A DNA stretch of 64,000 bases from Escherichia coli (GTDB lineage: Bacteria > Pseudomonadota > Gammaproteobacteria > Enterobacterales > Enterobacteriaceae): assembly GCF_024223415.1 (NCBI RefSeq), contig NZ_CP100500.1; one strand, given 5' to 3'. The notes beneath the pieces were generated by a model that saw only the letters and a program-made list of their open reading frames with translations, was not told where the DNA came from and searched no databases. The translations under genes were made by a program, and so were the position numbers. Position 1 is the stretch's first letter. Each line of letters opens with the position of its first letter. Below are positions 10,762-64,000 of this stretch, piece by piece.

Positions 10762-10774
10762 CCTGAACCAGGAA

Positions 10775-12355: not shown

Positions 12356-12501
12356 TCCTGCCGTCCCTGCCGGATCTCAGATAAGTTTTCCATGGTCATC
12401 TGCTGACCATTAAAGGTGACGGATTTTCCGTCCAGCACCGCCATTTCAGCTTCCATATAACGCTGAATCATGGCTTCGATATCATTCTGGTTCATAACCA
12501 T
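12283..12501 (-). CDS. Head-tail joining protein W-like
   Basis: 72 aa, ends ...RRRGHPGYRLARF; lambda gpW-like size, position after terminase large subunit. Confidence 0.6.
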   Translation of the reverse strand: MVMNQNDIEAMIQRYMEAEMAVLDGKSVTFNGQQMTMENLSEIRQGRQEWERRLAALITRRRGHPGYRLARF

Positions 12502-14594
12502 CCTCCGGAAGTCAGCCAGGGGTTAACATCGTCAGTTACTGTTTTCTTCCGTTTTTGTTTTTTAACAGGCGTGGATACCGGTTCCGGTGAGGATGACGGT
12601 TCGGTACTGTCCTGGACACACTCCAGCCAGGTTTCCCGGCTCGCCCACTCCGGTGCATCCGGCCAGCGGATCTTTTCGTATCCATGCAGAATGACCAGAG
12701 CCTCGGCATACACCATCAGGTCAAAAGCTTCGTTGGCACCGCGACCCGGCTTACTCCATTTCCCGTCACTGCTCCGCTCTTCATACGTCAGTTCGTCGTA
12801 AAACCAGCTCCCCAGCCAGTCAGGGAAATGCACATAGCCGGGACCTGGCGAGTCACGCCATAACGCGTTATTCACCCGGTCTTTCAGTGCATCCGTCTGA
12901 AGAAGCCAGAGCGGCACATCACCTGCGGCCTGCGCCCGTCGGCCCGTTCGTCCGGTGTTATCAGGGAATGTACGGGTGATCAGTTTTGCGCGCCGGATGC
13001 TGTCGCCCTTAAACAGGTAAATACGTTTACCAAGGCCATCACGACGGCAACGACGCCAGAATTTATAGGCATTATCAGTGACCCCGTCTTCACCGCCGGA
13101 GTCCACCGCCATTGCCATCAGTCGCATTTGTTGAGAAGGATCGGAGGCCAGCGGCCAGCTTTTATGAAAAACATCCGTCAGCAGGACATCCCAGTCTTCC
13201 GGATAGCTGGCCGGATCAATTCGCTGGCTCTCCCCGTCGCTGTCACCGCGCAATGACTGCGTGATGTTGTAACGATCAATAATCCAGCGTTCGCCACGGC
13301 TGCCATAGCCCGTTACCTGAACCACAAAACGGCGATGACGTCCCGCCTGCACATCCACTGTCGCCACAAGGAAATTAACGCCATCCGGCACACTGCGGGA
13401 AGGAACTGGCTCTGCCCGCTGCTCAAGCAGTTCACTTTTTCGTTGCTCCATGCTGGCGCGGGGAAGATAAGGTAATCCCCAGTCGGTATTGATAACCGTC
13501 TTGAGTGTTTCTTCACTTCCGGTTGTCTCGTATTCCTGTTCTGCAGTAAGCAGTTTGTAAACGAGTTGCGAGAGTGTCTGGTAAGCAGCTGCCGGACCCT
13601 CCATCCAGAATGACGCAATACGTGAGCGTCGGGGATCACCATAACGACTGCCATCCGCATTGATGGATTCACCATCCCGCAACCAGACCCCACGTCCGTT
13701 CAGCTCACGTTTGTGTTCAGGCATAATCCGTCCTGAACAGGAAGGACACTGAATATAAGCCGCCTCACTTGCCAGCACGGGATCGGCAATATCACGGAAA
13801 CCAGCAACCACATCGCCGCAGGGCTGAAAATACTCACCACAGTGTGGACAGGGCCAGTACCAGCGACGGCGATCACCACGGTTATAGAGCGACAGGATCC
13901 CCGTGGTTGGTGGAGCCTCATGCGGTGAAGTCCGTCGCCATTTCACATCCTTCACATCCCTGCCGGGGGAACTCTCCACCAACGTCATACCGCTGGACAT
14001 AAATGTGGTGGTACGTTTTGAGGCAAGAGAGAAGGCATCCCCCTCGCCATCAATATCTTCCGGAAAACGGTCATAATCCGTCAGCGCGACGCATTTATAA
14101 TCTGATGAGGACATGATATTGACTGACGGCCAGCCGATTTTCAGGTAGTTGCCAGCAAGGAATGTTCTGTCATAAACGTTGTTGTCATTTTTGTTCGGAC
14201 TCAGGCGACTGACCACTTCCGGGCTGACGCGAAACGTTCTGGCGAGTCGTTTTTTGGAGTGTTCGCGGGCTTTTTCCTCCGTCATCTGAATGATCAGCAT
14301 ATCAGCAGGATCGCAAATCACGTTGTAAATCACCCAGCCGTCAATCAGGCCGATAGTCTTGCCGGTTCGTGCCGGGCCAACAAATATCACTGCGTCGTAT
14401 TCACGCGAGGCCAGGCAGTTCATCGGCTCAATAACATACGGTGCCACCAGCGGATCCCACGGGACTGAGTTCCCGGCCCCCATGGGCACCCGCATATACT
14501 GAGCAACGGCATCAGCAACCCGCATTCGTCTCGGTGCGCGAAGGATATAACCTGAATCGGTTCGTGCTGCCTTTGCGGTTTCCTGATTCAGCAT
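12492..14594 (-). CDS. Terminase large subunit (lambda gpA family)
   Basis: 700 aa; N-terminal ATPase region with FVGPARTGKT Walker A; lambda A-like. Confidence 0.9.
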   Translation of the reverse strand: MLNQETAKAARTDSGYILRAPRRMRVADAVAQYMRVPMGAGNSVPWDPLVAPYVIEPMNCLASREYDAVIFVGPARTGKTIGLIDGWVIYNVICDPADMLIIQMTEEKAREHSKKRLARTFRVSPEVVSRLSPNKNDNNVYDRTFLAGNYLKIGWPSVNIMSSSDYKCVALTDYDRFPEDIDGEGDAFSLASKRTTTFMSSGMTLVESSPGRDVKDVKWRRTSPHEAPPTTGILSLYNRGDRRRWYWPCPHCGEYFQPCGDVVAGFRDIADPVLASEAAYIQCPSCSGRIMPEHKRELNGRGVWLRDGESINADGSRYGDPRRSRIASFWMEGPAAAYQTLSQLVYKLLTAEQEYETTGSEETLKTVINTDWGLPYLPRASMEQRKSELLEQRAEPVPSRSVPDGVNFLVATVDVQAGRHRRFVVQVTGYGSRGERWIIDRYNITQSLRGDSDGESQRIDPASYPEDWDVLLTDVFHKSWPLASDPSQQMRLMAMAVDSGGEDGVTDNAYKFWRRCRRDGLGKRIYLFKGDSIRRAKLITRTFPDNTGRTGRRAQAAGDVPLWLLQTDALKDRVNNALWRDSPGPGYVHFPDWLGSWFYDELTYEERSSDGKWSKPGRGANEAFDLMVYAEALVILHGYEKIRWPDAPEWASRETWLECVQDSTEPSSSPEPVSTPVKKQKRKKTVTDDVNPWLTSGGWL

Positions 14595-15088
14595 TACTCC
14601 TCCTGCTGTAATTCCTCCTCATCATCCGCACCTGCTTCAGTCACCCGCAGGGCTATCTGATCGCGCAGATCATCAATAATGGACTGAACACGGCTCACAG
14701 CGGCAGGCTGCAGACCGCAGTCACGTTCAAGAATATCCGGTAATGTCTCCAGCACCTGCACGACCGCTTTTGCCCAGATGGCAAACTCCCGTCTGACATC
14801 ACTGGCCGGAATGAGTTGTGCCGTTTCCTGTTCGAACTTAAGACGCTCACGTTCAGACTGATACCAGGCTTTGCGCTCATGCGCGTCCATTTCGCCTTCT
14901 GCAACCGGCGGTGGTAATGCCAGAAATGCCGACACAATATCAACCACCCGATAAAGCTTGAGGTTGCTTTCATGCCCCCCTGCAACGGGTAGATTTTGCA
15001 GCCTTGCCGCAGCAGTCTGGCGATGTACACCTGACAGTGCCGCCAGTTGACTGATATTAAGCGTCAGATTTTTTAACTCTCGATCCAT
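14594..15088 (-). CDS. Terminase small subunit (Nu1-like)
   Basis: 164 aa; N-terminal HTH LNISQLAALSGVHRQTAAARL; acidic C-terminus; precedes terminase large subunit. Confidence 0.75.
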   Translation of the reverse strand: MDRELKNLTLNISQLAALSGVHRQTAAARLQNLPVAGGHESNLKLYRVVDIVSAFLALPPPVAEGEMDAHERKAWYQSERERLKFEQETAQLIPASDVRREFAIWAKAVVQVLETLPDILERDCGLQPAAVSRVQSIIDDLRDQIALRVTEAGADDEEELQQEE

Positions 15089-32502: not shown

Positions 32503-33521
32503 AAAAGCTAGGGGATTTACCTGATGTCACTTTTGAAGAGGCCTGCCTAAGATGGCTTGAGGAAAAAGCTGATAAAAAATCTCTCGATTCAGATAAAAGC
32601 CGGATTGAGTTCTAGCTTGAACATTTTGAGGGTATAAGGCTTAAAGATATCTCGGAGGCAAAGATTTACTCTGCTGTAAGCAGAATGCATAACAGAAAGA
32701 CGAAAGAAATATGGAAACAGAAAGTTCAGGCCGCCATCAGGAAAGGTAAAGAACCGCCTGTTTATGAACCAAAGCCAGTATCAACTCAGACAAAGGCAAA
32801 GCATCTTGCCATGATAAAGGCCATTCTCCGTGCTGCAGAACGCGACTGGAAGTGGCTGGAAAAAGCGCCTGTCATCAAGATACCAGCGGTCAGAAACAAG
32901 CGAGTCAGATGGCTGGAAAAGGAGGAAGCAAAACGCCTTATTGATGAGTGCCCCGAACCACTGAAATCTGTCGTCAAGTTTGCGCTGGCAACTGGTCTGA
33001 GAAAGTCGAACATCATAAATCTGGAATGGCAACAAATCGACATGCAGCGACGAGTTGCCTGGGTGAATCCAGAAGAGAGCAAATCAAACCGCGCCATTGG
33101 TGTGGCGCTGAACGATACCGCCTGTAAAGTGTTGCGTGATCAAATAGGCAAGCATCACAAATGGGTGTTTGTACATACCAAGGCGGCTAAGCGAGCAGAT
33201 GGAACATCAACGCCTGCGGTCAGGAAGATGCGCATCGACAGCAAGACATCATGGCTATCAGCTTGTCGTCGTGCAGGAATTGAAGATTTCCGTTTCCATG
33301 ACCTCAGACACACCTGGGCAAGCTGGCTGATCCAGTCAGGCGTCCCATTATCAGTGCTTCAGGAAATGGGCGGATGGGAGTCCATAGAAATGGTTCGTAG
33401 GTATGCTCACCTTGCGCCTAATCATTTGACAGAGCATGCAAGGAAAATAGACGACATTTTTGGTGATAATGTCCCAAATATGTCCCACTCTGGAATTATG
33501 GAGGATATAAAGAAGGCGTAA
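32358..33521 (+). pseudogene. intD: Tyrosine integrase (IntD-type) interrupted by in-frame TAG at codon 86
   Basis: [19 protein letters not shown]...SRIEF then TAG at 32613-32615, then the same frame continues [11 protein letters not shown]... to the catalytic domain (…HDLRHTWAS…RYAHL…). Confidence 0.8.
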
Positions 33522-33536
33522 CTGATTGAATTGTAA

Positions 33537-33613
33537 TGGCGCGCCCTGCAGGATTCGAACCTGCGGCCCACGACTTAGAAGGTCGTTGCTCTATCCAACT
33601 GAGCTAAGGGCGC
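33537..33613 (-). tRNA. argU: tRNA-Arg (anticodon UCU)
   Basis: 77-nt cloverleaf on minus strand, anticodon loop CTTCTAAGT, T-arm GGTTCGAATCC, 3' CCA; immediately downstream of int. Confidence 0.9.
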
Positions 33614-52994: not shown

Positions 52995-54230
52995 ATGATT
53001 ACACATTTTCGTCAAGCCATAGAAGAAGCGCTGCCCTGGCTTTCCTCATTTGGCGCTGACCCAACGGGTGGGATGACCCGTTTACTTTATTCGCCGGAAT
53101 GGCTGGAAACCCAGCAGCAATTTAAAAAAAGAATGGCCGCAAGTGGGCTGGAAACACGTTTCGATGAAGTGGGGAATTTATACGGTCGCCTGAGTGGCAC
53201 CGAATATCCACAGGAAGTGGTTCTGAGCGGTTCGCATATCGATACCGTGGTTAACGGCGGTAACCTCGACGGGCAATTCGGCGCGCTGGCGGCGTGGCTG
53301 GCAATTGACTGGCTGAAAACTCAATACGGCGCACCGCTGCGTACGGTTGAAGTGGTGGCGATGGCGGAAGAAGAAGGCAGCCGCTTCCCGTATGTTTTCT
53401 GGGGCAGTAAAAATATCTTTGGGCTGGCGAATCCTGACGACGTGCGGAATATCTGTGATGCCAAAGGAAATAGTTTTGTCGATGCGATGAAGGCTTGCGG
53501 ATTTACTCTGCCGGACGCCCCGCTAACTCCGCGTCAGGATATTAAAGCCTTTGTCGAACTGCATATCGAACAGGGCTGTGTGCTGGAAAGTAATGGGCAA
53601 TCAATTGGCGTGGTGAATGCAATTGTCGGGCAACGTCGCTATACGGTGACGCTGAACGGCGAATCAAACCATGCAGGCACCACGCCGATGGATTATCGTC
53701 GTGATACGGTTTACGCTTTCAGTCGCATTTGCCATCAGTCGATCGAAAAAGCGAAAAAGATGGGCGACCCGCTGGTGCTGACCTTTGGTAAGGTGGAGCC
53801 GCGCCCGAATACGGTGAATGTGGTGCCGGGTAAAACCACGTTCACCATTGATTGTCGTCATACCGACGCCGCCGTGCTGCGTGATTTCACCCAACAGTTA
53901 GAAAACGACATGCGGGCGATTTGCGATGAAATGGACATTGGTATTGATATCGATTTATGGATGGACGAAGAACCCGTGCCGATGAATAAGGACCTGGTCG
54001 CCACCCTGACAGAATTGTGTGAAAGTGAAAAACTGAATTACCGGGTGATGCACAGTGGTGCCGGGCACGACGCGCAAATTTTCGCGCCTCGCGTGCCGAC
54101 CTGCATGATTTTCATTCCCAGCATCAATGGGATCAGCCATAACCCGGCGGAACGCACCAATATTACCGACCTTGCCGAAGGGGTCAAAACGTTGGCACTC
54201 ATGCTTTATCAACTTGCCTGGCAGAAATAA
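52995..54230 (+). CDS. allC: Allantoate amidohydrolase AllC
   Basis: From MITHFRQAIEEALPWLS; M20 peptidase family. Confidence 0.9.
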   Translation: MITHFRQAIEEALPWLSSFGADPTGGMTRLLYSPEWLETQQQFKKRMAASGLETRFDEVGNLYGRLSGTEYPQEVVLSGSHIDTVVNGGNLDGQFGALAAWLAIDWLKTQYGAPLRTVEVVAMAEEEGSRFPYVFWGSKNIFGLANPDDVRNICDAKGNSFVDAMKACGFTLPDAPLTPRQDIKAFVELHIEQGCVLESNGQSIGVVNAIVGQRRYTVTLNGESNHAGTTPMDYRRDTVYAFSRICHQSIEKAKKMGDPLVLTFGKVEPRPNTVNVVPGKTTFTIDCRHTDAAVLRDFTQQLENDMRAICDEMDIGIDIDLWMDEEPVPMNKDLVATLTELCESEKLNYRVMHSGAGHDAQIFAPRVPTCMIFIPSINGISHNPAERTNITDLAEGVKTLALMLYQLAWQK

Positions 54231-54644
54231 GGAGTCATAAATGGGATATATCTATAACTTATTTTCAATAAGGTATTGATTTAATTAAACAACTTACACT
54301 ACAAAAAGTGCCAAAAATCGCAAATTAACTACACCATTAACTACACCGTTCGGCGCACTGTATGAAACAACGTGGAACAAATAGGCACAAGAAATATAAA
54401 GGCGGGTAATTTTAAGGGGGCGTTGCTGTCGATACGGGGATCCACATATCGAGATTGATACCTGGCTTTTTTTCCGGTTAACCTTTAATCAGGCTGGTGG
54501 GCTTTACCTGTTCTGTAGGAGTGGTCATTATGACCATTCAGCCAATGACCTTAATCAGAATTTTTCGCTAAAAAATGACGTTGGCCACGTCATCCGGAAA
54601 GCACAAAATCACGTCGATTTTTAATGGATGGTTAAACCGTCTTT

Positions 54645-54950
54645 TTGTCACGGTGTGTCACTGGTTGTCACGCTCTGTCACGATGTCCGGCCTCCTCACA
54701 TTGAGGATTGTGGAAGAATCAATGGGTTAGTCTTACTACCCAAACTACGGGTAGTTTCCGTAGTTTCATGGTCGAGTTGCAGATCTGCAACTCCCCCATC
54801 AACCACAGGCGAATTTCCGCCTTCGGTCATTCCTTAATCATCTGCGTAATCATAATGATTATTCAGCCACCTCAATTTTGAGGTTTGCTTTAAGTTCAGC
54901 GAGTTACCGCGCCGACTTCCTCAAATTGAGGTTTCCGAAAATATCAGTGG
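54645..54950. repeat. Repeat-dense non-coding region (phased TGTCAC repeats, CCTCA-N-TGAGG palindromes, 20-bp perfect palindrome)
   Basis: TGTCAC x4 at exactly 10-bp spacing (54645-54680); palindromes CCTCACATTGAGG (54693), CCTCAATTTTGAGG (54870), CCTCAAATTGAGG (54919); GAGTTGCAGATCTGCAACTC (54774-54793). Confidence 0.6.
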
Positions 54951-55087
54951 GTTAGCGATTAAGCTGACCATTAATTAAACTGCGAAAATTTCGTAGTTTG
55001 TGACTGTCTTTCAGGCAGCTTGTTATCAGTCCTCAGATGTGAGGGATGTAGCCAGCGCAATTTTGCGTTATCGGGAATATCAGCAAG

Positions 55088-55369
55088 TTACCGCCGTAAC
55101 CGTTCCGGCTTCTTCCACTGATAAGTGTTTTTCGCGCTCTCCTGATACATCGCCACGCGTCGACGGTATGCCAGCAACTCTAGTACTCTGATTCGTATGT
55201 CGCGCATATCCACGCCGTTAAGCTCAATACCATCACGGCGCATTACATCAGCAACAACACGCACGTAATTTTCGGCGATCACGCTGTCCGGCTGCGTGGC
55301 CTGTTCGTCATGCTGCTGGCTGATTCCGGTAACGCGGCGGATTAATCCCAGTAGTTCGGCTTCTGTCAT
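55088..55369 (-). CDS. Hypothetical protein
   Basis: 93 aa ORF at the end of the element's minus-strand gene series. Confidence 0.35.
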   Translation of the reverse strand: MTEAELLGLIRRVTGISQQHDEQATQPDSVIAENYVRVVADVMRRDGIELNGVDMRDIRIRVLELLAYRRRVAMYQESAKNTYQWKKPERLRR

Positions 55370-55661
55370 TGTGCCCCCATCGCTCTGATAGTCTGGTGTC
55401 GTCGGGTCCTTCTGGAATTATGGCCCGTTACGGGGCGTCGACCTCGCGGTTTTTCGCTATTTATGAGCTTTTTTAGAGGGAGGTTGTTGTTTAATTGTTT
55501 GTCATATCCATTTGATAACTAAGTAAAAATAAAGAGCAATACAACAACCTGATAGTGTTTTTTTGATGCTAAAAATAAAAAAATACTAATTGAATCAAAT
55601 AGTTTTAAAAAAATACGTGGTTGTTGTATTGCGTATTTGATGGCGTAACAGAAAGTGATTT

Positions 55662-56102
55662 TTAACTTTGCTGTTCTGTAACGACTGATTGTTCCATGCT
55701 GGCACGGCGAACGCTTACGGCATGACGCCACCCAGCCAGAAAGCCAGCCATTTTATTTCGTGCCTTGCTCACATCTTCCGGTGAATAGCCGTAAATATGC
55801 AAACCTTCATCAAATCGCTGTTCTGTTTCTTCACTGAAATACTCGTCGCGCTCTGACGCAATCAACCTGGCAACCATAATCTTTTCCAGTGCGCTGGTTT
55901 CTCCGTGGTACTCAATAGCATCAAGATGGCTTTTACCCATGCACCAGAATAATGTGTGTCCGATGTGATAACCGCCGGACTTTCCGCGATCCGCATCAAG
56001 ATATGGCATGCCCTGTTTGGTCCATGCGCGAATAGTGGTTCTGTTGACCTTGAAATGTTCTGCTATTTCCTGCTGACTCACAAAACAAGCTTTATCAATC
56101 AT
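55662..56102 (-). CDS. Nu1-like HTH protein (terminase small subunit-like / packaging specificity candidate)
   Basis: 146 aa; N-terminal SQQEIAEHFKVNRTTIRAWTKQGMPY...GGYHIGH resembles lambda Nu1 N-terminal DNA-binding domain. Confidence 0.45.
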   Translation of the reverse strand: MIDKACFVSQQEIAEHFKVNRTTIRAWTKQGMPYLDADRGKSGGYHIGHTLFWCMGKSHLDAIEYHGETSALEKIMVARLIASERDEYFSEETEQRFDEGLHIYGYSPEDVSKARNKMAGFLAGWRHAVSVRRASMEQSVVTEQQS

Positions 56103-56235
56103 AATGTTACCTTAATCATGCGATTAAATGTTAATCAAGTGGTGGTGGTGTCACCTTCACGGAAAAACGTCATAAATAGCGAAAACGCGCGAGGTCGACG
56201 CCCCGTAACGGGTCCACATGCCGGAAAGGACCCGC

Positions 56236-56258
56236 AAAAAAAGCCGGATTTCTCCGGC
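56236..56258 (-). terminator. Intrinsic terminator
   Basis: Minus-strand hairpin GCCGGA-loop-TCCGGC followed by TTTTTTT, downstream of ORF 56265-56678. Confidence 0.45.
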
Positions 56259-56264
56259 CTTGTC

Positions 56265-56678
56265 TCAGATGGTTTTCAGTATGCGATCGATGTCGCCGTC
56301 ATCGCCCTGGTTTGTGCCATCGTATGCCATGCCAGCTGATACGGCTTTCGGGCTGTGCATGTCCATAAAGTTTTCAAAGGCTGAAGTAAGCTCTGGTGCA
56401 ACCTTCGGGCGTTCCTGCTCTATGGTCATGCTAAGGATGCTTTTAGCCGTACCAACATCGATACAAGGCACGTTAGCCATTGCACGTAACAGCGGCTGGT
56501 AGTCGTCAGATTCATGAAGCGCCATAATCGCATCAGCGCGCGGCTTGTCCTGTTCTTCCAGTTTGTTGAGTCGGTGTATGGCCTCGTAGGTTGATAAACC
56601 TCTGTCAGCCATTGCCCGCGCTTCGGCTTTAAATTTACTCGCCAGCGGTAGCTTCATGATACTTTCATTCGTTGCCAT
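56265..56678 (-). CDS. Hypothetical head-module protein
   Basis: 137 aa acidic protein directly downstream of the gpD-like gene. Confidence 0.35.
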   Translation of the reverse strand: MATNESIMKLPLASKFKAEARAMADRGLSTYEAIHRLNKLEEQDKPRADAIMALHESDDYQPLLRAMANVPCIDVGTAKSILSMTIEQERPKVAPELTSAFENFMDMHSPKAVSAGMAYDGTNQGDDGDIDRILKTI

Positions 56679-56690
56679 CGTTCCCCCTGC

Positions 56691-57026
56691 TTATCGTGCC
56701 AGCGGCTGAACGGATACGCCGGAACCCGCAAAGGCGGCGCATTTTTTCGCATCGGTGTCGACGCTATCAGGCCAGTTAACGGCGGCAATATTGAATATCC
56801 CCGTTTTGTAACACTGTGCTGATTTCTGCTTTGACGTGTCCACGGGGTGCGAAGTCAGATAAACAGCTTTGCCAGATTCCTGACCATCCCACGCCTTAAA
56901 CTCGCCATTGTCTGCCAGCATCAGCGGGGTAAATTCCTGAATAACGCCAGCATCAGCGGCAAAATGTACCAGCGTCGTGGATACCTGCTGGCTGCCTGAA
57001 AATAACTCAATGTATGGAGCGTCCAT
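56691..57026 (-). CDS. Head decoration protein (lambda gpD-like)
   Basis: 111 aa; ...LMLADNGEFKAWDG...AAFAGSGVSV resembles gpD; adjacent to gpE-like gene. Confidence 0.6.
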   Translation of the reverse strand: MDAPYIELFSGSQQVSTTLVHFAADAGVIQEFTPLMLADNGEFKAWDGQESGKAVYLTSHPVDTSKQKSAQCYKTGIFNIAAVNWPDSVDTDAKKCAAFAGSGVSVQPLAR

Positions 57027-57037
57027 AGAATCCCCCG

Positions 57038-58093
57038 TTAAGCAATTTTGACGGTAACAAATTTGCGAATATCTGCCGGTACCGGCTGCGGTGCGCTGTG
57101 CGTCTGCACGTACTCAATCGCCGGATCGCCGTCCTCAATCCAGTTTTTCGGGTAGTACATGTTTTGCGTTGCGCCCGTTCTTACCGCTTCCTGATCCATA
57201 ATCGCACCATATGCCACCAGCCCTTTATTGTTGGTGTTACCCAGGACCAGCAAATCAGGCTCAAGGAAATATTTTTCGGTGCCGTCGCTGTCAGTGTATT
57301 TGCCGGAATAGACGATAAGGGCCAGATCACCAAGATAGCCTTTAAAGCTCACCACTTCGCCCAGGTTTTTACAGGCCAGCTCGGCGGCGGATTCTGACCC
57401 ACGGGAAAGATCGTACAGTTCACGGAATTTTTTAAAGCTGCGTAATGTGCGCCATACCTCACCGCCCATAATCATGACGTTGGCGGGGCAACCTGCCTGA
57501 TCAGCATAAAGCTCGATGTCATAGATTGGGTCGTGCATGTCTTTATCCTGCTGGGACCATTTTTTACCACTGGCCTGCTGTATGATGCAGTTTTCCGGTA
57601 TTTTCCAGTCGATTTCATAGCGTTCTATGCCTTCGCCCTCAATGATGTTTTTTCCGGTCGTTACCGCATTCACCGCCAGCCATTCAACACGCGCTTTAAT
57701 GGCGTTTACCTGGCGGCGCATGTTGCCAGTAATCAGGCGCATACGGCGATAGGTTGGGTCGTTAAGCTGTGCCGGATCTTCTCCAGCCATGCGCATGATG
57801 GTCTTTGTTGGATCGATTTCGTGCTTTGGCTTCATGTAGCCTGGTTTAATCGTGCTGGTTTCGTACCCTTTATCGCGCTGGACCTGACTACCCACCATAG
57901 GAGAACAGAACGCAGACATCGTAACCTCTTCAATGTCCAGGGTGTCCAGCATGATGTTTTGGGTGTTGAAGGTCGCCACGTTCGGGAAAAACAGCGTGGT
58001 AAACAGCGGACTAAATTTAAATTCCGAAATATCCCCGCGATTCAGGTACGCGAAAAGCTGGTTAGTTGTAAGTGCCGTTGCTTTGCCTGTCAT
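57038..58093 (-). CDS. Major capsid protein (lambda gpE-like)
   Basis: 351 aa; shares with lambda gpE the blocks PGYMKPKHE, EDPAQLNDPTYRR, YSGKY, YPKNW..GDPA, SAP. Confidence 0.8.
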   Translation of the reverse strand: MTGKATALTTNQLFAYLNRGDISEFKFSPLFTTLFFPNVATFNTQNIMLDTLDIEEVTMSAFCSPMVGSQVQRDKGYETSTIKPGYMKPKHEIDPTKTIMRMAGEDPAQLNDPTYRRMRLITGNMRRQVNAIKARVEWLAVNAVTTGKNIIEGEGIERYEIDWKIPENCIIQQASGKKWSQQDKDMHDPIYDIELYADQAGCPANVMIMGGEVWRTLRSFKKFRELYDLSRGSESAAELACKNLGEVVSFKGYLGDLALIVYSGKYTDSDGTEKYFLEPDLLVLGNTNNKGLVAYGAIMDQEAVRTGATQNMYYPKNWIEDGDPAIEYVQTHSAPQPVPADIRKFVTVKIA

Positions 58094-58299
58094 TATTCAC
58101 CTCCGTGAACCTGATTGATACCCAGCGCCGCACGTAAATAGGTGCGCACCTGCCAGCCTGTTGACGGCTCAACCATCGCCAGCGGATCAAGTCCTGCCGC
58201 AATGCCTGCTTTTACATTCTGCTGGTGGCGTTCCTTGAGCGCCTCCACGATGTCGGGGCTTATGTAGACCGTCACCCCGCCTTTTTTCTCTTCTGCCAT
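58093..58299 (-). CDS. Hypothetical small protein upstream of capsid gene
   Basis: 68 aa ORF whose stop overlaps the capsid start. Confidence 0.3.
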   Translation of the reverse strand: MAEEKKGGVTVYISPDIVEALKERHQQNVKAGIAAGLDPLAMVEPSTGWQVRTYLRAALGINQVHGGE

Positions 58300-58466
58300 A
58301 GTCAGAAATTCCTCTTTGACTTAAAAAATCATAACTGGATGTTCATCCAGTCCTGATTATAATCATGATTGCATTTTGTGCAATAATGTTGAGTTGTGTT
58401 GCAAATTATGAAATGATTATCCCGATCATGTGTGTCAGTGCACCATAAAAAACCTCGTATACAAAA

Positions 58467-58532
58467 GCCCGATAAGCCCCCTGTGACCTTATCGGGCTTT
58501 TTTTAGGCGTAAAAAAGCCGGATTGCTCCGGC
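58467..58532. terminator. Back-to-back intrinsic terminators
   Basis: Plus-strand hairpin GCCCGATAAG-loop-CTTATCGGGC + T7 (58467-58504) and minus-strand hairpin GCCGGA-TTGC-TCCGGC + T6 (58511-58532) just downstream of the PerC-like gene. Confidence 0.5.
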
Positions 58533-58539
58533 TGTGTGC

Positions 58540-58812
58540 TCACTTCTGCGGGTAGTTGCGCCATATTGCTTTGCCAATACCAGCTATCCCCATTTGTTTT
58601 TCAGTGCGATTAACTGACCTTTTCAGAGCGCCTAAATCATCCGGCGGCTCCGGTGGCCTCTGTGCCTTCCGTGAACATTCCAGCCGTCGCATTGCCACCT
58701 GTGCGCGTTCCTTGTCTGTCTCCACCAGCATCATCACTTCACCCCATCGCGCGGCCGCCCTCCGGTAAAATCCTTTCGCCTCCAGTTCCTCCGCTATCCG
58801 GTCATGTACCAT
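58540..58812 (-). CDS. PerC/ANR-like putative regulator
   Basis: From MVHDRIAEELEAKGFYRRAAARWGEV with GAGGGGG RBS; motif shared with prophage ORF 25038-25532. Confidence 0.4.
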   Translation of the reverse strand: MVHDRIAEELEAKGFYRRAAARWGEVMMLVETDKERAQVAMRRLECSRKAQRPPEPPDDLGALKRSVNRTEKQMGIAGIGKAIWRNYPQK

Positions 58813-58822
58813 CGTCACCCCC

Positions 58823-59233
58823 TCAGAACGGAATATCATCACCGTAAGGGTCATCGCCTCCCGCTGGTGGCTGATTACCCTGTGTGCCTGTGGTTTTGCG
58901 TCTGTTCCCGCCAGGACGTGCCGCACGGGCACTGATTACGCTGTCTGCGATGACCTGCCAGCCCTGCCGCGTTTCGCCGTTCTGGCCTGTCCACTGGCTT
59001 ACCTGCATGTTACCCGCCACGCTCACCAGTTCGCCTTTGTGGTGTCTGGCCAGTGCGTCGGCCTGTCTGCCAAACGCCAGGACGGATAACCACATCGTCG
59101 CCGTTCCGTCATCTGCCTGGCTGCATGGCAGGGGAACCGCCATACTCGCCATCGCCATTTGTGTCCCTTTGCTGGTCTGTTTTGTCTGCGGGTCGTCCAC
59201 CAGCCGCCCGTAAGCCGCTATCTGTGCTGTCAT
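58823..59233 (-). CDS. ssb: Single-stranded DNA-binding protein (SSB)
   Basis: 136 aa; OB-fold-like N-terminal region, Gly/Pro/Gln-rich linker, C-terminal acidic tip ...GDDPYGDDIPF typical of SSB. Confidence 0.7.
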   Translation of the reverse strand: MTAQIAAYGRLVDDPQTKQTSKGTQMAMASMAVPLPCSQADDGTATMWLSVLAFGRQADALARHHKGELVSVAGNMQVSQWTGQNGETRQGWQVIADSVISARAARPGGNRRKTTGTQGNQPPAGGDDPYGDDIPF

Positions 59234-59487
59234 GCTGTCTGCTCTCCGGTTTTAACATTGATGGTTGTCACCTGTTCCGCTCCGGCAATCTCCCGCTCTG
59301 TCAGCGTGGCAAAGTTTGCCGCCGTCGTTGTCATGAATGCGCTTATCAGTTCGGGATGTGCTTTCGCGTATCCTTCCCCCGTGTTGCGGTCGATGATTTT
59401 TATCGCCACCCTCAGCCAGTGCTCTGTAAGGTCAATGGCGCGGTTATGTGATTTCTTCTGATTGTTAAATTTTTCTGATGTGTGCAT
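59230..59487 (-). CDS. Hypothetical protein
   Basis: 85 aa ORF between origin and SSB, coupled to SSB start. Confidence 0.35.
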   Translation of the reverse strand: MHTSEKFNNQKKSHNRAIDLTEHWLRVAIKIIDRNTGEGYAKAHPELISAFMTTTAANFATLTEREIAGAEQVTTINVKTGEQTA

Positions 59488-59533
59488 TTTTATTTTTACC
59501 CCCTCGTTTAAAAAGTTTTGAGTTGTGGTGCAC

Positions 59534-59766
59534 CTCCTCTACCTCTCTACACAATCATCTTTCAGGTCAGTAATGGCGCGGCTTTCAGCGGGGTAGAGGG
59601 CTTTTTTGGCCCTCTACCCGCCATCTACCACCCCCTCACAAATGCCCTGAATTATGGTAGAGGGTGTAGAGGGCTTTTAAGTACCTTCTACCTGCCATCC
59701 ACCCAATCTATCCACATGAAATATATGTAATTATTTTCTTAAGGTAGAAGGGGTAGAGGGCTTTTG
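59534..59766. repeat. Iteron-type replication origin of the second element
   Basis: Multiple direct and inverted copies of GGTAGAGGGCTTTT (and variants GGTAGAAGG, rc CCCTCTACC) immediately 3' of the primase gene. Confidence 0.65.
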
Positions 59767-59773
59767 TCTAAAA

Positions 59774-61522
59774 CTATAAAAACGCGTCGCAGTCGTCTGT
59801 TGTTGTCACGTTGGTTTGCGTAAACCCTTTAATCCTGCGCGTTATATATTCATGACCGTAAACTTTCGCCGCTGGCTTCATGGCCTTGCTGAACTCAGCC
59901 ACGTTCAGCGGTTTGCTCCTGCCTGCATACGCCATAAACGCCAGATAGACGCGGTAAAGGCTGTTTCTGGTCGTGTACTTCACTGAATCGCCACCGCCGC
60001 CCATCATCAGGCCACGTGCTTCCTCCAGAAAATTCAGGAACTGGCAAAACTCAATAACCGGATCCGTCTGTTGCTTTATTGCCAGAGCTTCATCACCGTC
60101 TCGCTGTTCAATGAGTAAAGCCCGTGCCTTTTCAGGGTCGGCAAAGTTCGCCAGCAAGCGGCGGATAATGACAGGGATTTCAGCCGCGATCTTTTCCGGT
60201 AGCTCCCTGTCTTTTTCTGCCTCGCTTACGATGTTATCGAACCGGAATATCACCCGACGACGTGACACGCCTCCTGCCCGTTCGGTGAATATCATCGGGT
60301 TATTATTGGTTGCCAGCACAACCGCCCTGATTACCGCCGTGAATCGCTTTTCATATTTCGGGTTGATTTCCACGGGGTCGCCGCCCGTGATTTTCTTGAT
60401 GCCCGTTCCTTCGCCTGTATATTTCGGCTGGTCTGCCAGGACAATAAGCCTACTCCCGACAACCTGCGCACGCCCACCAGCATCATCAAGCGATGTCATC
60501 TCAGCGCTTACCGTGTTCTGTTTCCCTGCCAGAAGGCTGGCTATGTGTGTGAATGTACTTTTACCGCTCCCGCCGTCTCCGGTGGCCTCAATAAACATCT
60601 GCCAGTCGTACCGGTTCGCCATAATCATGTACAGCGCGGCACATATACGCATCATCTTGCGCGGGTCTTTTCCGGCAGCGTGATCAAGCCATTTATGAAA
60701 GTTTGGCGCGTTGTCGCGGATATTCTCACCTGGTACTGGCGGCGTGTACTCAATGCCGTTGTGTGTGGTGATCCAGTTCTCCGGCGTGTGCGGGGAAAAT
60801 TCCCCCGTTTTCAGGTCAAGCGCACCATTGGCGAACGGCAGCAAATCGCCGGACGGCTCGCCCATTGGTTCGGCAATAACTTTTAACGCTTCCACGGCGT
60901 TACTGATTACGCGCTTGCTGAAAGTGGCCCTGTGCTCTGAATAGATCGCCACCATTTCGCGGCTCAGTTCCATTGTGCTGACCGGACACCATACCCCGCC
61001 GCGCCATACGTGAACGATTTCACTTTCCAGATGCACACAAACGCCATCAAATCGACCAGCAAGCATCTGTGCGCGCTCACTGTCTGCCATTTGTGCCAGT
61101 TGCGTATTTTTCTGCTCCGGCATGGTAAGCCCTGCGGCAATATTTTCACGCTCAGCATTCAGATAGCGCCGCCAGTTTTCACACTTCTGACCGTGCATTC
61201 CTTCAGAGTAAAAATTCGCATCCTGAATATCTGCCGCCGCCAGCTTCTGACCAATCTTTTTGGTCTCCACTAAATCCAGTTCTCCGGCCTGGTACAGCCT
61301 TACGCGTTTTTTTCCATCCGGAACAATTTTCAGCGCATCAAGTTCAGCAAGCTGATTTGGCCCAAGCCACACAGGCGGCACATTATCGCCGGATGCGGGA
61401 CCGTCCTTCTCCTGCCACTGTTGTGCATGCGACCAGGCATCACTACCCGCAAAGATAATTACCTCTGTGTCTTTGTGTTTTATTCCGCGTGGCTGTTTTT
61501 TTACGTTCGGTGCCAGTTTCAT
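59774..61522 (-). CDS. Primase/replicative helicase (D5_N/Primase_C + SF3 helicase, P4-alpha/PICI Pri-Rep type)
   Basis: 582 aa; Walker A GDGGSGKST; origin iterons directly downstream. Confidence 0.8.
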   Translation of the reverse strand: MKLAPNVKKQPRGIKHKDTEVIIFAGSDAWSHAQQWQEKDGPASGDNVPPVWLGPNQLAELDALKIVPDGKKRVRLYQAGELDLVETKKIGQKLAAADIQDANFYSEGMHGQKCENWRRYLNAERENIAAGLTMPEQKNTQLAQMADSERAQMLAGRFDGVCVHLESEIVHVWRGGVWCPVSTMELSREMVAIYSEHRATFSKRVISNAVEALKVIAEPMGEPSGDLLPFANGALDLKTGEFSPHTPENWITTHNGIEYTPPVPGENIRDNAPNFHKWLDHAAGKDPRKMMRICAALYMIMANRYDWQMFIEATGDGGSGKSTFTHIASLLAGKQNTVSAEMTSLDDAGGRAQVVGSRLIVLADQPKYTGEGTGIKKITGGDPVEINPKYEKRFTAVIRAVVLATNNNPMIFTERAGGVSRRRVIFRFDNIVSEAEKDRELPEKIAAEIPVIIRRLLANFADPEKARALLIEQRDGDEALAIKQQTDPVIEFCQFLNFLEEARGLMMGGGGDSVKYTTRNSLYRVYLAFMAYAGRSKPLNVAEFSKAMKPAAKVYGHEYITRRIKGFTQTNVTTTDDCDAFL

Positions 61523-61818
61523 TTTTTACCCCTGAATACGTTAAGCATCTTTTTTATTTCCTGAATATTGGCGCGTGCTTTCTCCCTGCTGGTTGGTTTA
61601 CTGCGGGGCGCTGCCTGTACCAGAGAAAAATCACGCCGGAACTGATAAACAGGCATCACGCAATCATATTCGTAGCCTTCACGGCGGTAAGTGATGCGCC
61701 GTTCCTCCACGCCTTTAATCGTTACCGTGCCGCCGTACTGGTCGCGGTAAATATCGCCGTTCATAAATTCAGGCCGAGCGGGGCCGCTGGCATTAACGCC
61801 AGTATTTTTCATTCCCAT
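61519..61818 (-). CDS. Small conserved protein upstream of primase
   Basis: 99 aa; motif RITYRREGYEYDCVMPVYQFRRDF shared with prophage ORF 26460-26681. Confidence 0.45.
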   Translation of the reverse strand: MGMKNTGVNASGPARPEFMNGDIYRDQYGGTVTIKGVEERRITYRREGYEYDCVMPVYQFRRDFSLVQAAPRSKPTSREKARANIQEIKKMLNVFRGKK

Positions 61819-61822
61819 ATAA

Positions 61823-62065
61823 TTAAATTCCGTTTGTGTGGTGTTTTAATTCGTCAATTTTTTCTAATGCTTTGTTTATCTTGCTGGTGGAAATATCCAG
61901 CAATTCAGAAATAGCAAATATAAGTCTTGCCGTTGATTCATCTCTTTCGTTGTTTGACAGCAATTGAAACCACACGTTTGTAATTTCAATTGCCGAATTA
62001 TTATAGGTTATTGCACTGTTCATGTATTCCGACACCTCTGCAAGCGAAAGTTTATTATTCTCCAT
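61823..62065 (-). CDS. Hypothetical protein
   Basis: 80 aa ORF in tightly packed minus-strand operon. Confidence 0.3.
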   Translation of the reverse strand: MENNKLSLAEVSEYMNSAITYNNSAIEITNVWFQLLSNNERDESTARLIFAISELLDISTSKINKALEKIDELKHHTNGI

Positions 62066-62246
62066 AACGTTCTACCCTCTCATCAATTAACCACAGTGCA
62101 ACACTTCCTGACAGTCTTGCCAGAAGGCCAGCTAATGCGGATATATCATCATCATTTAATTTATTAGGGTACGCTTCAAGAAGTCTGCAAATAATTTCGG
62201 TTTGGTGGGCGCGTTCAGCGGCTTCGTGTAATGTAATTTCCTTCAT
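62055..62246 (-). CDS. Hypothetical protein
   Basis: 63 aa ORF, overlapping neighbours. Confidence 0.3.
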   Translation of the reverse strand: MKEITLHEAAERAHQTEIICRLLEAYPNKLNDDDISALAGLLARLSGSVALWLIDERVERYGE

Positions 62247-62431
62247 TAATGCACCTCTTTTAATTCATACACTGCTGAAATAATGACTTGTGATAAGCCA
62301 TATTCTGATGATTCGCTTCTCACCGCAGCAATAGCCGTCTGAACATTAACAGCCTTCACATTCTGAGCGATACCAATTGTGTGGCCTAGTGGGTTAACAG
62401 CTCGGGCAAATACACGGAAGGTTTTAAGCAT
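62246..62431 (-). CDS. Hypothetical protein
   Basis: 61 aa ORF, overlapping neighbours. Confidence 0.3.
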   Translation of the reverse strand: MLKTFRVFARAVNPLGHTIGIAQNVKAVNVQTAIAAVRSESSEYGLSQVIISAVYELKEVH

Positions 62432-62831
62432 GGCGCACCCCCTGAATAACCTGATATCCGCAACTGGTCAGCAATTCGATAAATTCCGGCAGAGTGCCAA
62501 AACAGCAATCAGTGCGTAGCTGTTCGCAGGATACCTCAACGCCGTTTTCGTAATGGCTCACTATGCGCCCGGTAAAATGCGGATCATCATCGTGATGGCA
62601 CGTTGACGGTTTCATCAGCCGCGCGCGTTCCGCCAGTTCCAGCAATGCTTCAACGCTTCCGGCAATTGCACCATCCGGCAGGTGATAATTACTTACTACG
62701 CGTCCATTCTCTACATTGACCAGTAGCTGTCCGGTAAATTTCTCACGAAACTGAACGCGGTTAAGATCGGTAAGTGACAGGTTAATCATGGCACACCTCC
62801 TGACGAATACGGGCGGCGAATACAGCGACAC
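62424..62831 (-). CDS. Hypothetical protein
   Basis: 135 aa ORF at head of the minus-strand operon. Confidence 0.35.
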   Translation of the reverse strand: MSLYSPPVFVRRCAMINLSLTDLNRVQFREKFTGQLLVNVENGRVVSNYHLPDGAIAGSVEALLELAERARLMKPSTCHHDDDPHFTGRIVSHYENGVEVSCEQLRTDCCFGTLPEFIELLTSCGYQVIQGVRHA

Positions 62832-63172
62832 AACCGGACGGGCAACGGTTACGCGCTTCGCGTTCTGTCCAGGCGGTCACGTGGATAATTTGAGATTCTC
62901 CGGCACTCAGTGCCAGAAAACGCCACACAAAGGCGGTTTGTGTGTGCGCAAGGCGTGGGGTATGCTGTGTTCCAGCCATAATCGTTACCTCAATTAATGG
63001 TTTGGTTAGAAGCCCGTTGGTGTTCATAGCGCCAGCGGGCTTTGTCTTTTCATCGATTACCTCAATAAAGGTGTCAGCCACTATACTAGTAACAGGTGTC
63101 AGCCACGTCAATAGTGTTTTTCCATTTTCTTGTGTGTATACTGTCAGCCACCTAATAACAAGGAAATCAGAT

Positions 63173-63352
63173 ATGGCAACGAAAGCAGTTAATGGAAAAT
63201 CCAAAAAACTTGAGGCACGAGTCCCCCATGCAATAGCTGACGCTTTAGAAAATTTAAAGGAAGAAGGCGAAAGCACTGGGCAATTTATCGTTTCGGCACT
63301 TGAAGGCGAGATCAAACGCCGCCAGCGCCGGAAGGCCAAAGAATCAGAATAA
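63173..63352 (+). CDS. Small basic protein (possible DNA-binding regulator)
   Basis: 59 aa from MATKAVNGKSKKLEARVPHAIADALENLKEEG...; divergent from the minus-strand operon. Confidence 0.35.
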   Translation: MATKAVNGKSKKLEARVPHAIADALENLKEEGESTGQFIVSALEGEIKRRQRRKAKESE

Positions 63353-63409
63353 TCACTATCAGCGCCGTGGTGTGAGGTACTGCGGCGCATTGTTTTAAAG
63401 GTGATAATT

Positions 63410-63601
63410 ATGAATAACCAAGAACTACAAAATAAAGCATTATCAATTATCATGCGCCAGCGTGAGAAAACCCGCAGGGAAATAAATAAGGCATTAACCC
63501 GCACTGAAAATCTTAAAGTTCCTGATAAGTTCGCCCTTGATCCTTTTGTCGAGAAATACCCTCGGCGCTTAAAAGCAAACAAAAACCGCCCACCTGGCTG
63601 A
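63410..63601 (+). CDS. Hypothetical small protein
   Basis: 63 aa ORF followed by an intrinsic terminator. Confidence 0.3.
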   Translation: MNNQELQNKALSIIMRQREKTRREINKALTRTENLKVPDKFALDPFVEKYPRRLKANKNRPPG

Positions 63602-63635
63602 CAATCCACCAGCAAGCCAGGACACTGATCACATT

Positions 63636-63663
63636 GGCCACCGTGACAGGTGGCCTTTTCTTT
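63636..63663 (+). terminator. Intrinsic terminator
   Basis: GGCCACC-GTGACA-GGTGGCC hairpin followed by TTTTCTTT. Confidence 0.5.
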
Positions 63664-64000
63664 GCCCGTTATCCGGCAATTGTGGCGCTTCGCCACACGG
63701 TTGATATAATCCCACTGCTCATATTCATTTTTTGCGCAGTAGGTTAATTGTTCAGAAAGGCGGCTCCTTATCGGGGCCGCTTTTTTTATGTCTGAAAAAC
63801 CGCGATTTTGTTGTTTTTCAGTTTCACAAGGCCGAACGAAGCCCCGCCCCTGTTCGGGCGTATATCCAGTCTTCATGGTTAAATCTCTGTATTAGTGGAT
63901 GGGTGGCGGCTGTGTGCCGCCAGTCTTTTTAGTGAACTGCCTCGCAGCTTTCCTTCCATGCCAGAACTTCGGATAAAGACCAGCCAACGGAACGACCGCC

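What the first reader, a model, noticed from the sequence alone, without database searches (positions are those of the whole stretch)
54231..64000. Compact satellite-like element with primase-helicase, iteron origin, SSB and its own lambda gpE/gpD-type capsid genes
In under 10 kb this element packs a P4-alpha/PICI-type primase-SF3 helicase (59774-61522) with an iteron origin directly 3' of it, a phage-type SSB, a lambda gpE-like major capsid gene and gpD-like decoration gene, a Nu1-like HTH protein and several tiny ORFs. It has no tail, portal or large terminase genes in the window. Replication and regulation modules typical of phage satellites combined with a lambda-type capsid/decoration pair is not a combination I can match to P4-like, classical PICI or capsid-forming PICI families. 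It may be a satellite that remodels or supplies capsids while borrowing packaging and tails from a helper, possibly the neighbouring prophage.
Basis: partly seen in the sequence, partly recalled or inferred. Interest (0 to 1): 0.75.

Follow-up and report, generated by a model that had tools for sequence, protein, structure and literature searches.

The report
EcCICFT073-type phage satellite island (PICI)
This is an ordinary member of a well-studied family of E. coli phage satellites (EcCICFT073-type PICIs), whose capsid and decoration genes are a known feature of the family but still have no assigned function.

Summary
Window 54244-64000 holds about 9.75 kb of a roughly 11.5 kb island inserted at the start codon of allE. 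It is gene-for-gene collinear with EcCICFT073, the experimentally characterised Gram-negative PICI. Amino-acid identities to EcCICFT073 are: capsid protein 95%, decoration protein 94%, 137-aa protein 93%, Pri-Rep 89%, Rpp 89%, SSB 85%. The "Nu1-like HTH protein" is Rpp, which in EcCICFT073 redirects the helper's small terminase. It is flanked by two lambda-type cos sites. Nine GGTAGAGGG iterons lie 3' of pri-rep, and the last 23 codons of alpA sit at the window edge. The integrase lies beyond the window. The capsid and decoration genes (c1499, c1500) are already described in EcCICFT073; deleting them gave no phenotype.

Three smaller points go beyond what I found in the literature:
- The 137-aa gene (the c1501 homologue) is related to the C-terminal part of the lambda scaffold protein Nu3.
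- The capsid gene is under strong purifying selection (dN/dS 0.06-0.14) and is at most 47% identical to any phage capsid protein.
- All published marked islands carry c1501::tetA or c1499::cat, so the intact capsid module appears untested.

The neighbouring argU prophage is not an obvious helper.

The parts
54244..54250 (.). attL core GGGATAT, inside the first codons of allE (ATG at 54242)
   Evidence: Homology to empty-site E. coli genomes ends at 54258. The same core occurs at attL and attR of the AR_0085 island at this site.
54325..54347 (+). Two tandem TTAACTACACC repeats, likely arm-type integrase binding sites
   Evidence: 2 exact copies against 0.01 expected by chance. A 30-nt block containing them recurs next to int at the other end of the AR_0085 island.
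54251..55087 (.). Non-coding left arm of the island. The 54645-55100 segment is absent from the AR_0085 island.
   Evidence: No Rfam match.
55088..55369 (-). 93-aa protein of unknown function (by position the c1504 homologue)
   Evidence: phrog_1561, E=6.5e-55. 78% identical to the CFT073 gene.
55433..55466 (+). cos2: a lambda-type cosN downstream of rpp, in inverted orientation
   Evidence: 2 mismatches to lambda cosN, 0 matches expected by chance. Position and flank match CFT073 cos.2.
   Evidence: 89% identical to CFT073 c1503 RppA. E=1.7e-32 to RppC, PDB 6HLK/6HN7. N-terminal HTH resembles Nu1.
56170..56203 (-). cos1: a lambda-type cosN directly upstream of rpp, co-oriented with it
   Evidence: The sequence matches CFT073 cos.1 through to the rpp start. 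81-89% identical over about 85 nt to the cos regions of 88 lambdoid Escherichia phages.
56265..56678 (-). 137-aa protein (c1501 homologue), related to the C-terminal part of the lambda scaffold protein gpNu3
   Evidence: phrog_1999, E=2.6e-61, and the C-terminus of phrog_53, E=5.3e-8. Lambda Nu3 hits phrog_1999 at E=2.7e-26. Bridging protein P0041 links the two. No Pfam hit.
56691..57026 (-). Head decoration protein, gpD-type (c1500 homologue)
   Evidence: phrog_49, E=3e-27. 36% identical to gpD. PF02924 is recorded for the equivalent genes in related islands.
57038..58093 (-). Major capsid protein, gpE-type (c1499 homologue)
   Evidence: phrog_29, E=3.5e-109. 43% identical to gpE. 95% identical to the CFT073 protein. 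dN/dS 0.06-0.14.
58093..58299 (-). 68-aa protein of unknown function; its stop codon overlaps the capsid gene's start codon
   Evidence: phrog_3255, E=8.7e-36. Conserved as part of the cassette in 594 genomes.
58516..58533 (-). Terminator-like hairpin between the perC-like gene and the capsid cassette
   Evidence: This is a pattern match only.
58540..58812 (-). PerC-family regulator (probable ATG at 58812)
   Evidence: phrog_994, E=6e-42. RefSeq names the homologues PerC family. PF06069 is recorded in related islands.
58823..59233 (-). Single-stranded DNA-binding protein
   Evidence: TIGR00621 above its cut-off. phrog_44.
59230..59487 (-). 85-aa protein of unknown function
   Evidence: phrog_1231, E=3e-46.
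59535..59760 (.). Replication origin: 9 GGTAGAGGG-type iterons in two sets around an AT-rich stretch
   Evidence: The layout matches the one described for E. coli PICI origins.
59774..61522 (-). Pri-Rep replicase (D5_N, SF3-type P-loop region, Pox_D5 C-terminal domain)
   Evidence: 89% identical to the EcCICFT073 Pri-Rep and 97% to that of STEC434.
61519..61818 (-). DUF4222 protein
   Evidence: phrog_285. RefSeq and Pfam naming of the homologues.
61823..62831 (-). Four small early ORFs of unknown function (61823-62065, 62055-62246, 62246-62431, 62424-62831)
   Evidence: Each hits a PHROG of unknown function. No PADLOC or NCBIfam hits.
62782..62979 (-). Icd-like cell division inhibitor. The 364-aa ORF listed at 62782-63876 is spurious upstream of this stretch.
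   Evidence: NF033153 at 64.9 bits, above its cut-off of 25. The PHROG hits fall only on residues 300-363 of the long ORF.
63176..63352 (+). YlcI/YnfO family protein
   Evidence: NF041551 at 62.2 bits, above its cut-off of 30.
63401..63601 (+). 66-aa hypothetical protein
   Evidence: 100% identical to a gene in the AR_0085 island.
63929..64000 (-). 3' end of alpA (last 23 codons), cut by the window edge
   Evidence: 22 of 23 residues identical to the C-terminus of EcCICFT073 AlpA.

Best explanation
This is a classical Gram-negative, cos-type phage-inducible chromosomal island (PICI) of the EcCICFT073 family. It is integrated at the start codon of allE in an E. coli chromosome and truncated by the window edge just before alpA and int.

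The mechanism below is shown experimentally for EcCICFT073 and inferred here from 78-95% protein identity and identical layout:
1. A lambdoid helper phage switches on alpA, and AlpA activates the leftward island operon.
2. The integrase excises the island.
3. Pri-Rep fires the iteron origin, probably with help from the island's SSB (my inference), producing concatemers.
4. Rpp binds the helper's Nu1-type small terminase. The hybrid complex recognises the island's own cosB at cos1 instead of the phage cos site.
5. The helper's large terminase then cuts the lambda-type cosN and packages island DNA into helper-made heads, which receive helper tails. Helper packaging is blocked at the same time.

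The gpE-like, gpD-like and Nu3-like genes form a conserved family cassette. It is under purifying selection, so it is presumably functional, but its role is not established.
For: - Collinearity and identity to the CFT073 island, which lies between phoQ and roxA.
- Islands of the same architecture at the same allC|allE site in AR_0085 and three other assemblies, each with a tyrosine integrase next to allE; AlpA is annotated in two of these four (AR_0085 and L008).
- Rpp matches the solved RppC structure at E=1.7e-32.
- Two lambda-type cosN sites flank rpp, as described for cos1 and cos2 of EcCICFT073.
- An iteron origin lies 3' of pri-rep.
- The alpA C-terminus sits at the window edge.
- Published experiments on EcCICFT073 cover induction, AlpA, ori, cos, Rpp, c1499 and c1500.
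- The capsid cassette is present in 597 of 5426 complete E. coli genomes.
- dN/dS for the capsid gene is 0.06-0.14.
Against: - The integrase, most of alpA and attR are outside the window, so the intactness of this copy is not shown.
- No complete E. coli genome in the collection covers more than 77% of the island in one place, so this exact mosaic has not been tested.
- Both cosN sites read GGGCGTCGACCT where lambda and the CFT073 cos sites read GGGCGGCGACCT. The effect of this change on helper range is unknown.
- No lambda-type helper is visible in the window.
Confidence: 0.93

Rival explanations
1. It is a decayed lambdoid prophage remnant that happens to retain E, D and Nu1-like genes.
For: The head genes are lambda-type. 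There are no portal, tail or lysis genes.
Against: - The gene order (E, D, Nu3-like, Nu1-like, all after a primase-ori-SSB module) is not lambda's order.
- The same cassette is conserved intact in 594 genomes, with dN/dS 0.06-0.14.
- The capsid protein is at most 47% identical to any phage capsid protein in 50,697 phage records, so it is not a recent phage leftover.
- The close homologue EcCICFT073 is a mobile, helper-dependent satellite.
Confidence: 0.02
2. It is a capsid-forming PICI (cf-PICI) that builds its own small capsids and steals only tails.
For: It has its own capsid, decoration and scaffold-like genes.
Against: - cf-PICIs encode a portal, protease, head-tail connectors, HNH, TerS and TerL. 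None of these is present here.
- Complete relatives add only alpA and int beyond the window edge.
- It carries Rpp and cos sites, the strategy for hijacking the helper's terminase.
Confidence: 0.02
3. It is a P4-like satellite.
For: It has a P4-family primase C-terminal domain (just under the cut-off), an Icd-like gene and an AlpA/Vis-like regulator.
Against: - No Psu, Sid, Delta or Cnr hits in PHROGs or NCBIfam.
- The cos sites are lambda-type, not P2/P4-type.
- The EcCICFT073 authors document that the two families are distinct.
Confidence: 0.01
4. It is an EcCICFT073-type PICI that is defective in this strain, for example with int or alpA lost or mutated beyond the window edge.
For: The right end cannot be seen. 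No lambda-type helper is visible nearby.
Against: All ORFs in the window are full length relative to homologues. The alpA C-terminus is intact. Four other islands at this site have int next to allE.
Confidence: 0.08

Closest known systems
EcCICFT073 (E. coli CFT073 PICI; Fillol-Salom et al. 2018 ISME J, 2019 Mol Cell)
   Same: - Identical gene order from alpA to the 93-aa gene.
- Protein identities: Pri-Rep 89%, SSB 85%, PerC 79%, 68-aa protein 93%, capsid 95%, decoration 94%, c1501 homologue 93%, RppA 89%.
- cos1 and cos2 flank rpp.
- An iteron origin lies 3' of pri-rep.
   Different: - The integration site is the allE start codon rather than between phoQ and roxA.
- The small early ORFs are partly different alleles.
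- The left arm carries about 450 bp of extra non-coding sequence.
- The cosN overhang reads GGGCGTCGACCT instead of GGGCGGCGACCT.
PICIs at the allC|allE site in E. coli AR_0085 (NZ_CP029741) and assemblies GCA_958429955, GCA_974490245 and GCA_016925075
   Same: Same attachment site. In AR_0085 the packaging and capsid module is 97-100% identical in protein, including an identical rpp.
   Different: Three of the four use a RepA/AAA_25-type replicase instead of the D5_N Pri-Rep. The fourth (L006) has the D5_N replicase but carries a Phage_Nu1-type gene and ProQ instead of Rpp, the 137-aa gene and PerC.
cf-PICIs (EcCIEDL933)
   Same: The same int-alpA-rep backbone family, plus a satellite-encoded capsid protein.
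   Different: cf-PICIs carry a complete head and packaging set (portal, protease, connectors, HNH, TerS, TerL) and make their own small capsids. This island has only the capsid, decoration and scaffold-like genes and relies on Rpp plus the helper terminase.
SaPIbov5 Ccm (a capsid-protein homologue used for capsid size redirection)
   Same: A cos-packaged satellite that encodes a homologue of its helper's major capsid protein.
   Different: Ccm has a demonstrated role in making small capsids. For the EcCICFT073-type capsid protein, no phenotype has been found and packaged DNA was phage-sized.

Membership tests
Classical Gram-negative PICI (EcCICFT073 type) | alpA activator gene next to the integrase, at the head of a co-directional operon | tested here: met
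   The last 23 codons of alpA lie at 63929-64000(-), 22 of 23 identical to EcCICFT073 AlpA. The rest is outside the window.
Classical Gram-negative PICI (EcCICFT073 type) | Tyrosine integrase at one end and a specific att site with a direct repeat | not testable with these tools
   The integrase and attR lie beyond base 64000. The attL core GGGATAT and arm-type repeats are present. Four related islands at the same site have int next to allE.
Classical Gram-negative PICI (EcCICFT073 type) | pri-rep gene with an iteron origin immediately 3' of it (two iteron sets around an AT-rich region) | tested here: met
.
Classical Gram-negative PICI (EcCICFT073 type) | Packaging hijack module: Rpp plus the island's own cos site(s), with no terL | tested here: met
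   Rpp is 89% identical to RppA and matches RppC at E=1.7e-32. cos1 and cos2 are present. No terminase large subunit is present.
Classical Gram-negative PICI (EcCICFT073 type) | Size of about 10-15 kb, with no lysis or tail genes | tested here: met
   9.75 kb lies in the window. Complete relatives are about 11-11.5 kb. No tail or lysis hits.
Classical Gram-negative PICI (EcCICFT073 type) | Helper-phage-dependent induction, replication and high-frequency transfer, with interference against the helper | not testable with these tools
   Shown experimentally only for EcCICFT073.
cf-PICI | The island's own portal, protease, head-tail connectors, HNH, TerS and TerL | tested here: not met
   None was found in PHROG, NCBIfam or Pfam scans of all ORFs. 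Complete relatives lack them too.
P4-like satellite | The sid, psu and delta capsid and regulation genes, and P2-type cos | tested here: not met
   No such hits. The cosN is lambda-type.
Lambda gpE / gpD / gpNu3 head protein families (for the cassette) | Full-length homology to gpE, homology to gpD, and homology to the Nu3 C-terminal region | tested here: met
   gpE: 43% over 343 aa. gpD: 36% over 76 aa. Nu3: supported only at profile level and through a bridging protein. Direct BLASTP found nothing and a shallow hhalign was weak.

The most novel reading that the evidence does not exclude
The 68-aa / gpE-like / gpD-like / Nu3-like cassette may be a working capsid-shell module. In an intact island it would build or remodel heads, either island-sized or chimeric, on the helper's portal and protease.

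On this reading, the published 'no phenotype, phage-sized DNA only' result for EcCICFT073 arose because every marked island used was c1501::tetA (the scaffold homologue disrupted) or c1499::cat (the capsid gene replaced).

The evidence does not exclude this:
- The cassette is a satellite-specific lineage, at most 47% identical to any phage capsid protein.
- The capsid gene has the lowest dN/dS of the island genes compared here.
- The cassette is kept as a unit in 11% of complete E. coli genomes.
Probability: 0.2. Interest if true: 0.6.

Novelty: already known. Interest (0 to 1): 0.2.

Why it matters
As filed, it matters little. It is one more mosaic copy of a family that has been dissected genetically and structurally and is already used as a delivery chassis. 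The residual value concerns the family rather than this locus. Its most widespread "late" genes (capsid, decoration, and a scaffold homologue not named as such in the papers I could search) are clearly maintained by selection, yet have no known role. The existing knock-out data appear to have been collected in backgrounds where the module was already broken. A clean test could reveal a further way in which satellites manipulate head assembly, or show that the proteins serve some other purpose such as interference or acting as a decoy.

Tried and rejected
- **Single-sequence AlphaFold2 of the 137-aa protein.** Mean pLDDT was 41, all-helical. This is too poor for a fold search, so none was run.
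- **Direct comparison of the 137-aa protein with Nu3.** BLASTP found nothing. hhalign of a shallow 6-sequence alignment against Nu3 gave only E=0.016 and probability 2.8%, although it aligned the same region. The homology claim therefore rests on PHROG profiles and a bridging protein.
- **Word-indexed homologue search.** It returned only close E. coli relatives. The exhaustive search returned 9 representatives.
- **BLASTP and phmmer of all island proteins against lambda head proteins W, FI and FII.** No support that the 68-aa or 93-aa proteins are W-, FI- or FII-like.
- **Rfam on 54000-64000 at E<=0.1.** No matches.
- **PADLOC on the small ORFs.** No credible defence genes.
- **NCBIfam.** It names only SSB, the primase C-terminal domain, Icd-like and YlcI/YnfO.
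- **Exact-protein look-ups to find the source contig and its right flank.** These failed for Pri-Rep and the 135-aa ORF. The 80-aa ORF led only to related mosaics.
- **Neighbouring argU prophage as helper.** Considered and judged unlikely.

Full report
**What is there**

All credible genes from 55088 to 62979 lie on the minus strand. In order of transcription they are:
- the last 23 codons of alpA at the window edge (63929-64000), 22 of 23 identical to EcCICFT073 AlpA;
- an Icd-like gene at 62782-62979;
- four small ORFs and a DUF4222 gene;
- a 582-aa replicase with D5_N, DUF5906 (the SF3-type P-loop region) and Pox_D5 domains;
- a 226-bp stretch with nine GGTAGAGGG-type iterons in two sets around an AT-rich core;
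- an 85-aa ORF, SSB and a PerC-family regulator;
- a terminator-like hairpin;
- a tight four-gene cassette: a 68-aa ORF, a gpE-type major capsid protein, a gpD-type decoration protein and a 137-aa ORF;
- a lambda-type cos site, a 146-aa HTH protein, a second cos site in inverted orientation, and a 93-aa ORF.

Two small plus-strand genes, one of the YlcI/YnfO family and one encoding a 66-aa protein, lie between the Icd-like gene and alpA. There are no portal, protease, large terminase, tail or lysis genes in the element.

**Boundaries**

Homology to E. coli chromosomes lacking an insert ends at 54258. allE begins at ATG 54242. I compared this junction with both ends of an island at the same site in strain AR_0085. 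That comparison shows a 7-bp core, GGGATAT (54244-54250), at attL and attR. Two tandem TTAACTACACC repeats lie at 54325-54347 and recur near the integrase end of AR_0085, so they are probably arm-type integrase sites.

The island separates allE from its start codon and from allD and allC. The right end (the rest of alpA, int and attR) is beyond base 64000. Four related islands at this site have a 409-aa tyrosine integrase next to allE.

**Identity**

A megablast search against 5,426 complete E. coli genomes returned many collinear islands at about 88-95% identity, but none covers more than 77% of the query in one place. One of them is the island between phoQ and roxA in strain CFT073. This is EcCICFT073, the model Gram-negative phage-inducible chromosomal island.

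Protein identities to EcCICFT073:

| Protein | Identity |
|---|---|
| Major capsid protein | 95% |
| Decoration protein | 94% |
| 137-aa protein | 93% |
| 68-aa protein | 93% |
| 85-aa protein | 90% |
| Pri-Rep | 89% |
| HTH protein | 89% |
| SSB | 85% |
| PerC-family regulator | 79% |
| 93-aa protein | 78% |

The island in the window is a mosaic. Its packaging and capsid half is 97-100% identical in protein to the AR_0085 island, and its replicase is 97% identical to that of strain STEC434.

**What the literature already shows for this architecture**

Fillol-Salom et al. 2018 (PMC6092414) reported the following for EcCICFT073:
- It is induced by helper phages (CFT073 prophage 4, lambda, phi80) through activation of alpA.
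- It needs int and pri-rep, and it has an iteron origin 3' of pri-rep.
- It carries two functional cos sites, and it needs the helper's TerS.
- It encodes [quoted passage not shown]. Deleting either changed neither transfer nor interference.
- Packaged DNA was phage-sized.

Fillol-Salom et al. 2019 (PMC6739421) showed that c1503 (RppA) binds the phage TerS. The complex recognises the island's cosB at cos1 and no longer recognises the phage cos site.

The HTH protein in the window matches the solved RppC structure (6HLK/6HN7) at E=1.7e-32. The site at 56170-56203(-) matches the published cos.1 sequence right up to the rpp start codon, and 55433-55466(+) corresponds to cos.2.

A later survey states that a major capsid gene is present in 21 of 29 reference Gram-negative PICIs (PMC10111431).

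**Rival classifications**

- cf-PICIs carry a full head and packaging set, which is absent here.
- The P4 hallmarks sid, psu and delta are absent, and the cos sites are lambda-type.
- A decayed prophage is contradicted in three ways. The cassette is present intact in 594 of the 597 complete E. coli genomes that match it. Purifying selection is evident. And no phage capsid protein in 50,697 phage records is more than 47% identical to this one.

**Helper**

The cosQ-cosN part of cos1 is 81-89% identical to the cos regions of 88 lambdoid Escherichia phages. The lambdoid prophage at argU in the same window (about 1-33.5 kb) has a different head module, a protease-capsid fusion. Its TerS has no BLASTP similarity to Nu1 or to Rpp. 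Its TerL is 25% identical to gpA. Its cosN-like sequence, GGGCGGGAGCAT, differs at four of the 12 positions. It is not an obvious helper, and a lambda/phi80-type phage elsewhere in the genome or arriving from outside is more likely. This is an inference.

**Points beyond what I found in the literature**

1. The 137-aa protein is the c1501 homologue; c1501 is 137 aa in the supplement of PMC6092414. It belongs to phrog_1999 and also hits the C-terminal end of the gpC/Nu3 family phrog_53 at E=5.3e-8. Lambda Nu3 itself hits phrog_1999 at E=2.7e-26 with residues 117-200. A 195-aa scaffold-like protein (P0041), found by exhaustive search, aligns to both. Direct BLASTP to Nu3 finds nothing and a shallow hhalign is weak, so I rate this homology as probable rather than proven. 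RefSeq's name for some alleles, "head-tail connector protein", has no support here. I found no paper that calls c1501 a scaffold homologue.
2. Pairwise dN/dS among four islands is 0.06-0.14 for the capsid gene, which is the lowest range of the eight genes compared. It is about 0.15-0.22 for the decoration gene, leaving aside one near-identical pair with dN=0. It is about 0.21-0.24 for the 137-aa gene in the well-diverged pairs.
3. In the accessible text and strain lists, every marked EcCICFT073 derivative is c1501::tetA or c1499::cat, and the c1499 and c1500 deletions were made in the c1501::tetA island. The conclusion that the capsid genes have no phenotype and that only phage-sized capsids are made was therefore, as far as I can see, never tested with all three head-gene homologues intact. 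This is my reading of the papers, not a demonstrated flaw.

**Verdict**

The element is a member of an already characterised family, so both novelty and interest are low. The only open question worth following up applies to the whole family, namely what the conserved capsid-decoration-scaffold cassette does.

Noticed in passing
window 54645-55100: This is a non-coding segment of about 450 bp, absent from the otherwise near-identical AR_0085 island. It holds four TGTCAC motifs at exact 10-bp spacing (54646, 54656, 54666, 54676). It also holds three CCTCA-N(3-4)-TTGAGG palindromes (54694, 54870, 54919). Part of it is shared with the STEC434 island. Its function is unknown and it has no Rfam match.
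   Followed up: partly
window 54242-54258, with L003 27780-27830: Island integration separates allE ((S)-ureidoglycine aminohydrolase) from its ATG and ribosome-binding site and from the upstream allD and allC genes. In AR_0085 the attR side reads AAAAGGGATAT, so the start codon is lost, and RefSeq annotates a 247-aa allE from an internal start. The allantoin pathway may be impaired in carriers.
   Followed up: partly
window 55433-55466 and 56170-56203: Both cosN sites of this island carry the same change in the 12-nt cohesive end. They read GGGCGTCGACCT, whereas lambda and both CFT073 cos sites read GGGCGGCGACCT. The matching change at both sites may reflect adaptation to a particular helper terminase.
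   Followed up: no
window 1-33613: A lambdoid prophage lies next to tRNA-Arg(tct) (33537-33613). It has TerS (14594-15088), TerL (12492-14594), a portal, a 739-aa protease-capsid fusion (8803-11022), a tape measure protein and an O-like replication gene. Its integrase ORF (32685-33521) is only 278 aa and aligns from about position 212 of the integrase profile, so it may be truncated.
   Followed up: partly
window 62782-63876 (-): A 364-aa ORF in the mechanical list is an artefact. Only its last 65 codons (the Icd-like gene) have homologues, and real small genes lie on the opposite strand within it.
   Followed up: yes
L006 15431-16030; L007 and L010 14941-15483: Some sister islands replace the 144-146-aa Rpp with a 180-199-aa protein carrying a Pfam Phage_Nu1 domain, and one of them (L006) also lacks the 137-aa Nu3-like gene. 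The packaging end of the family is therefore modular.
   Followed up: no
window 58540-58812 (-): The island carries a PerC-family regulator gene. From my own knowledge, PerC/Pch homologues regulate the LEE pathogenicity island in EPEC and EHEC, and a 2025 paper (PMC11773190) links an E. coli PICI to LEE repression.
   Followed up: no
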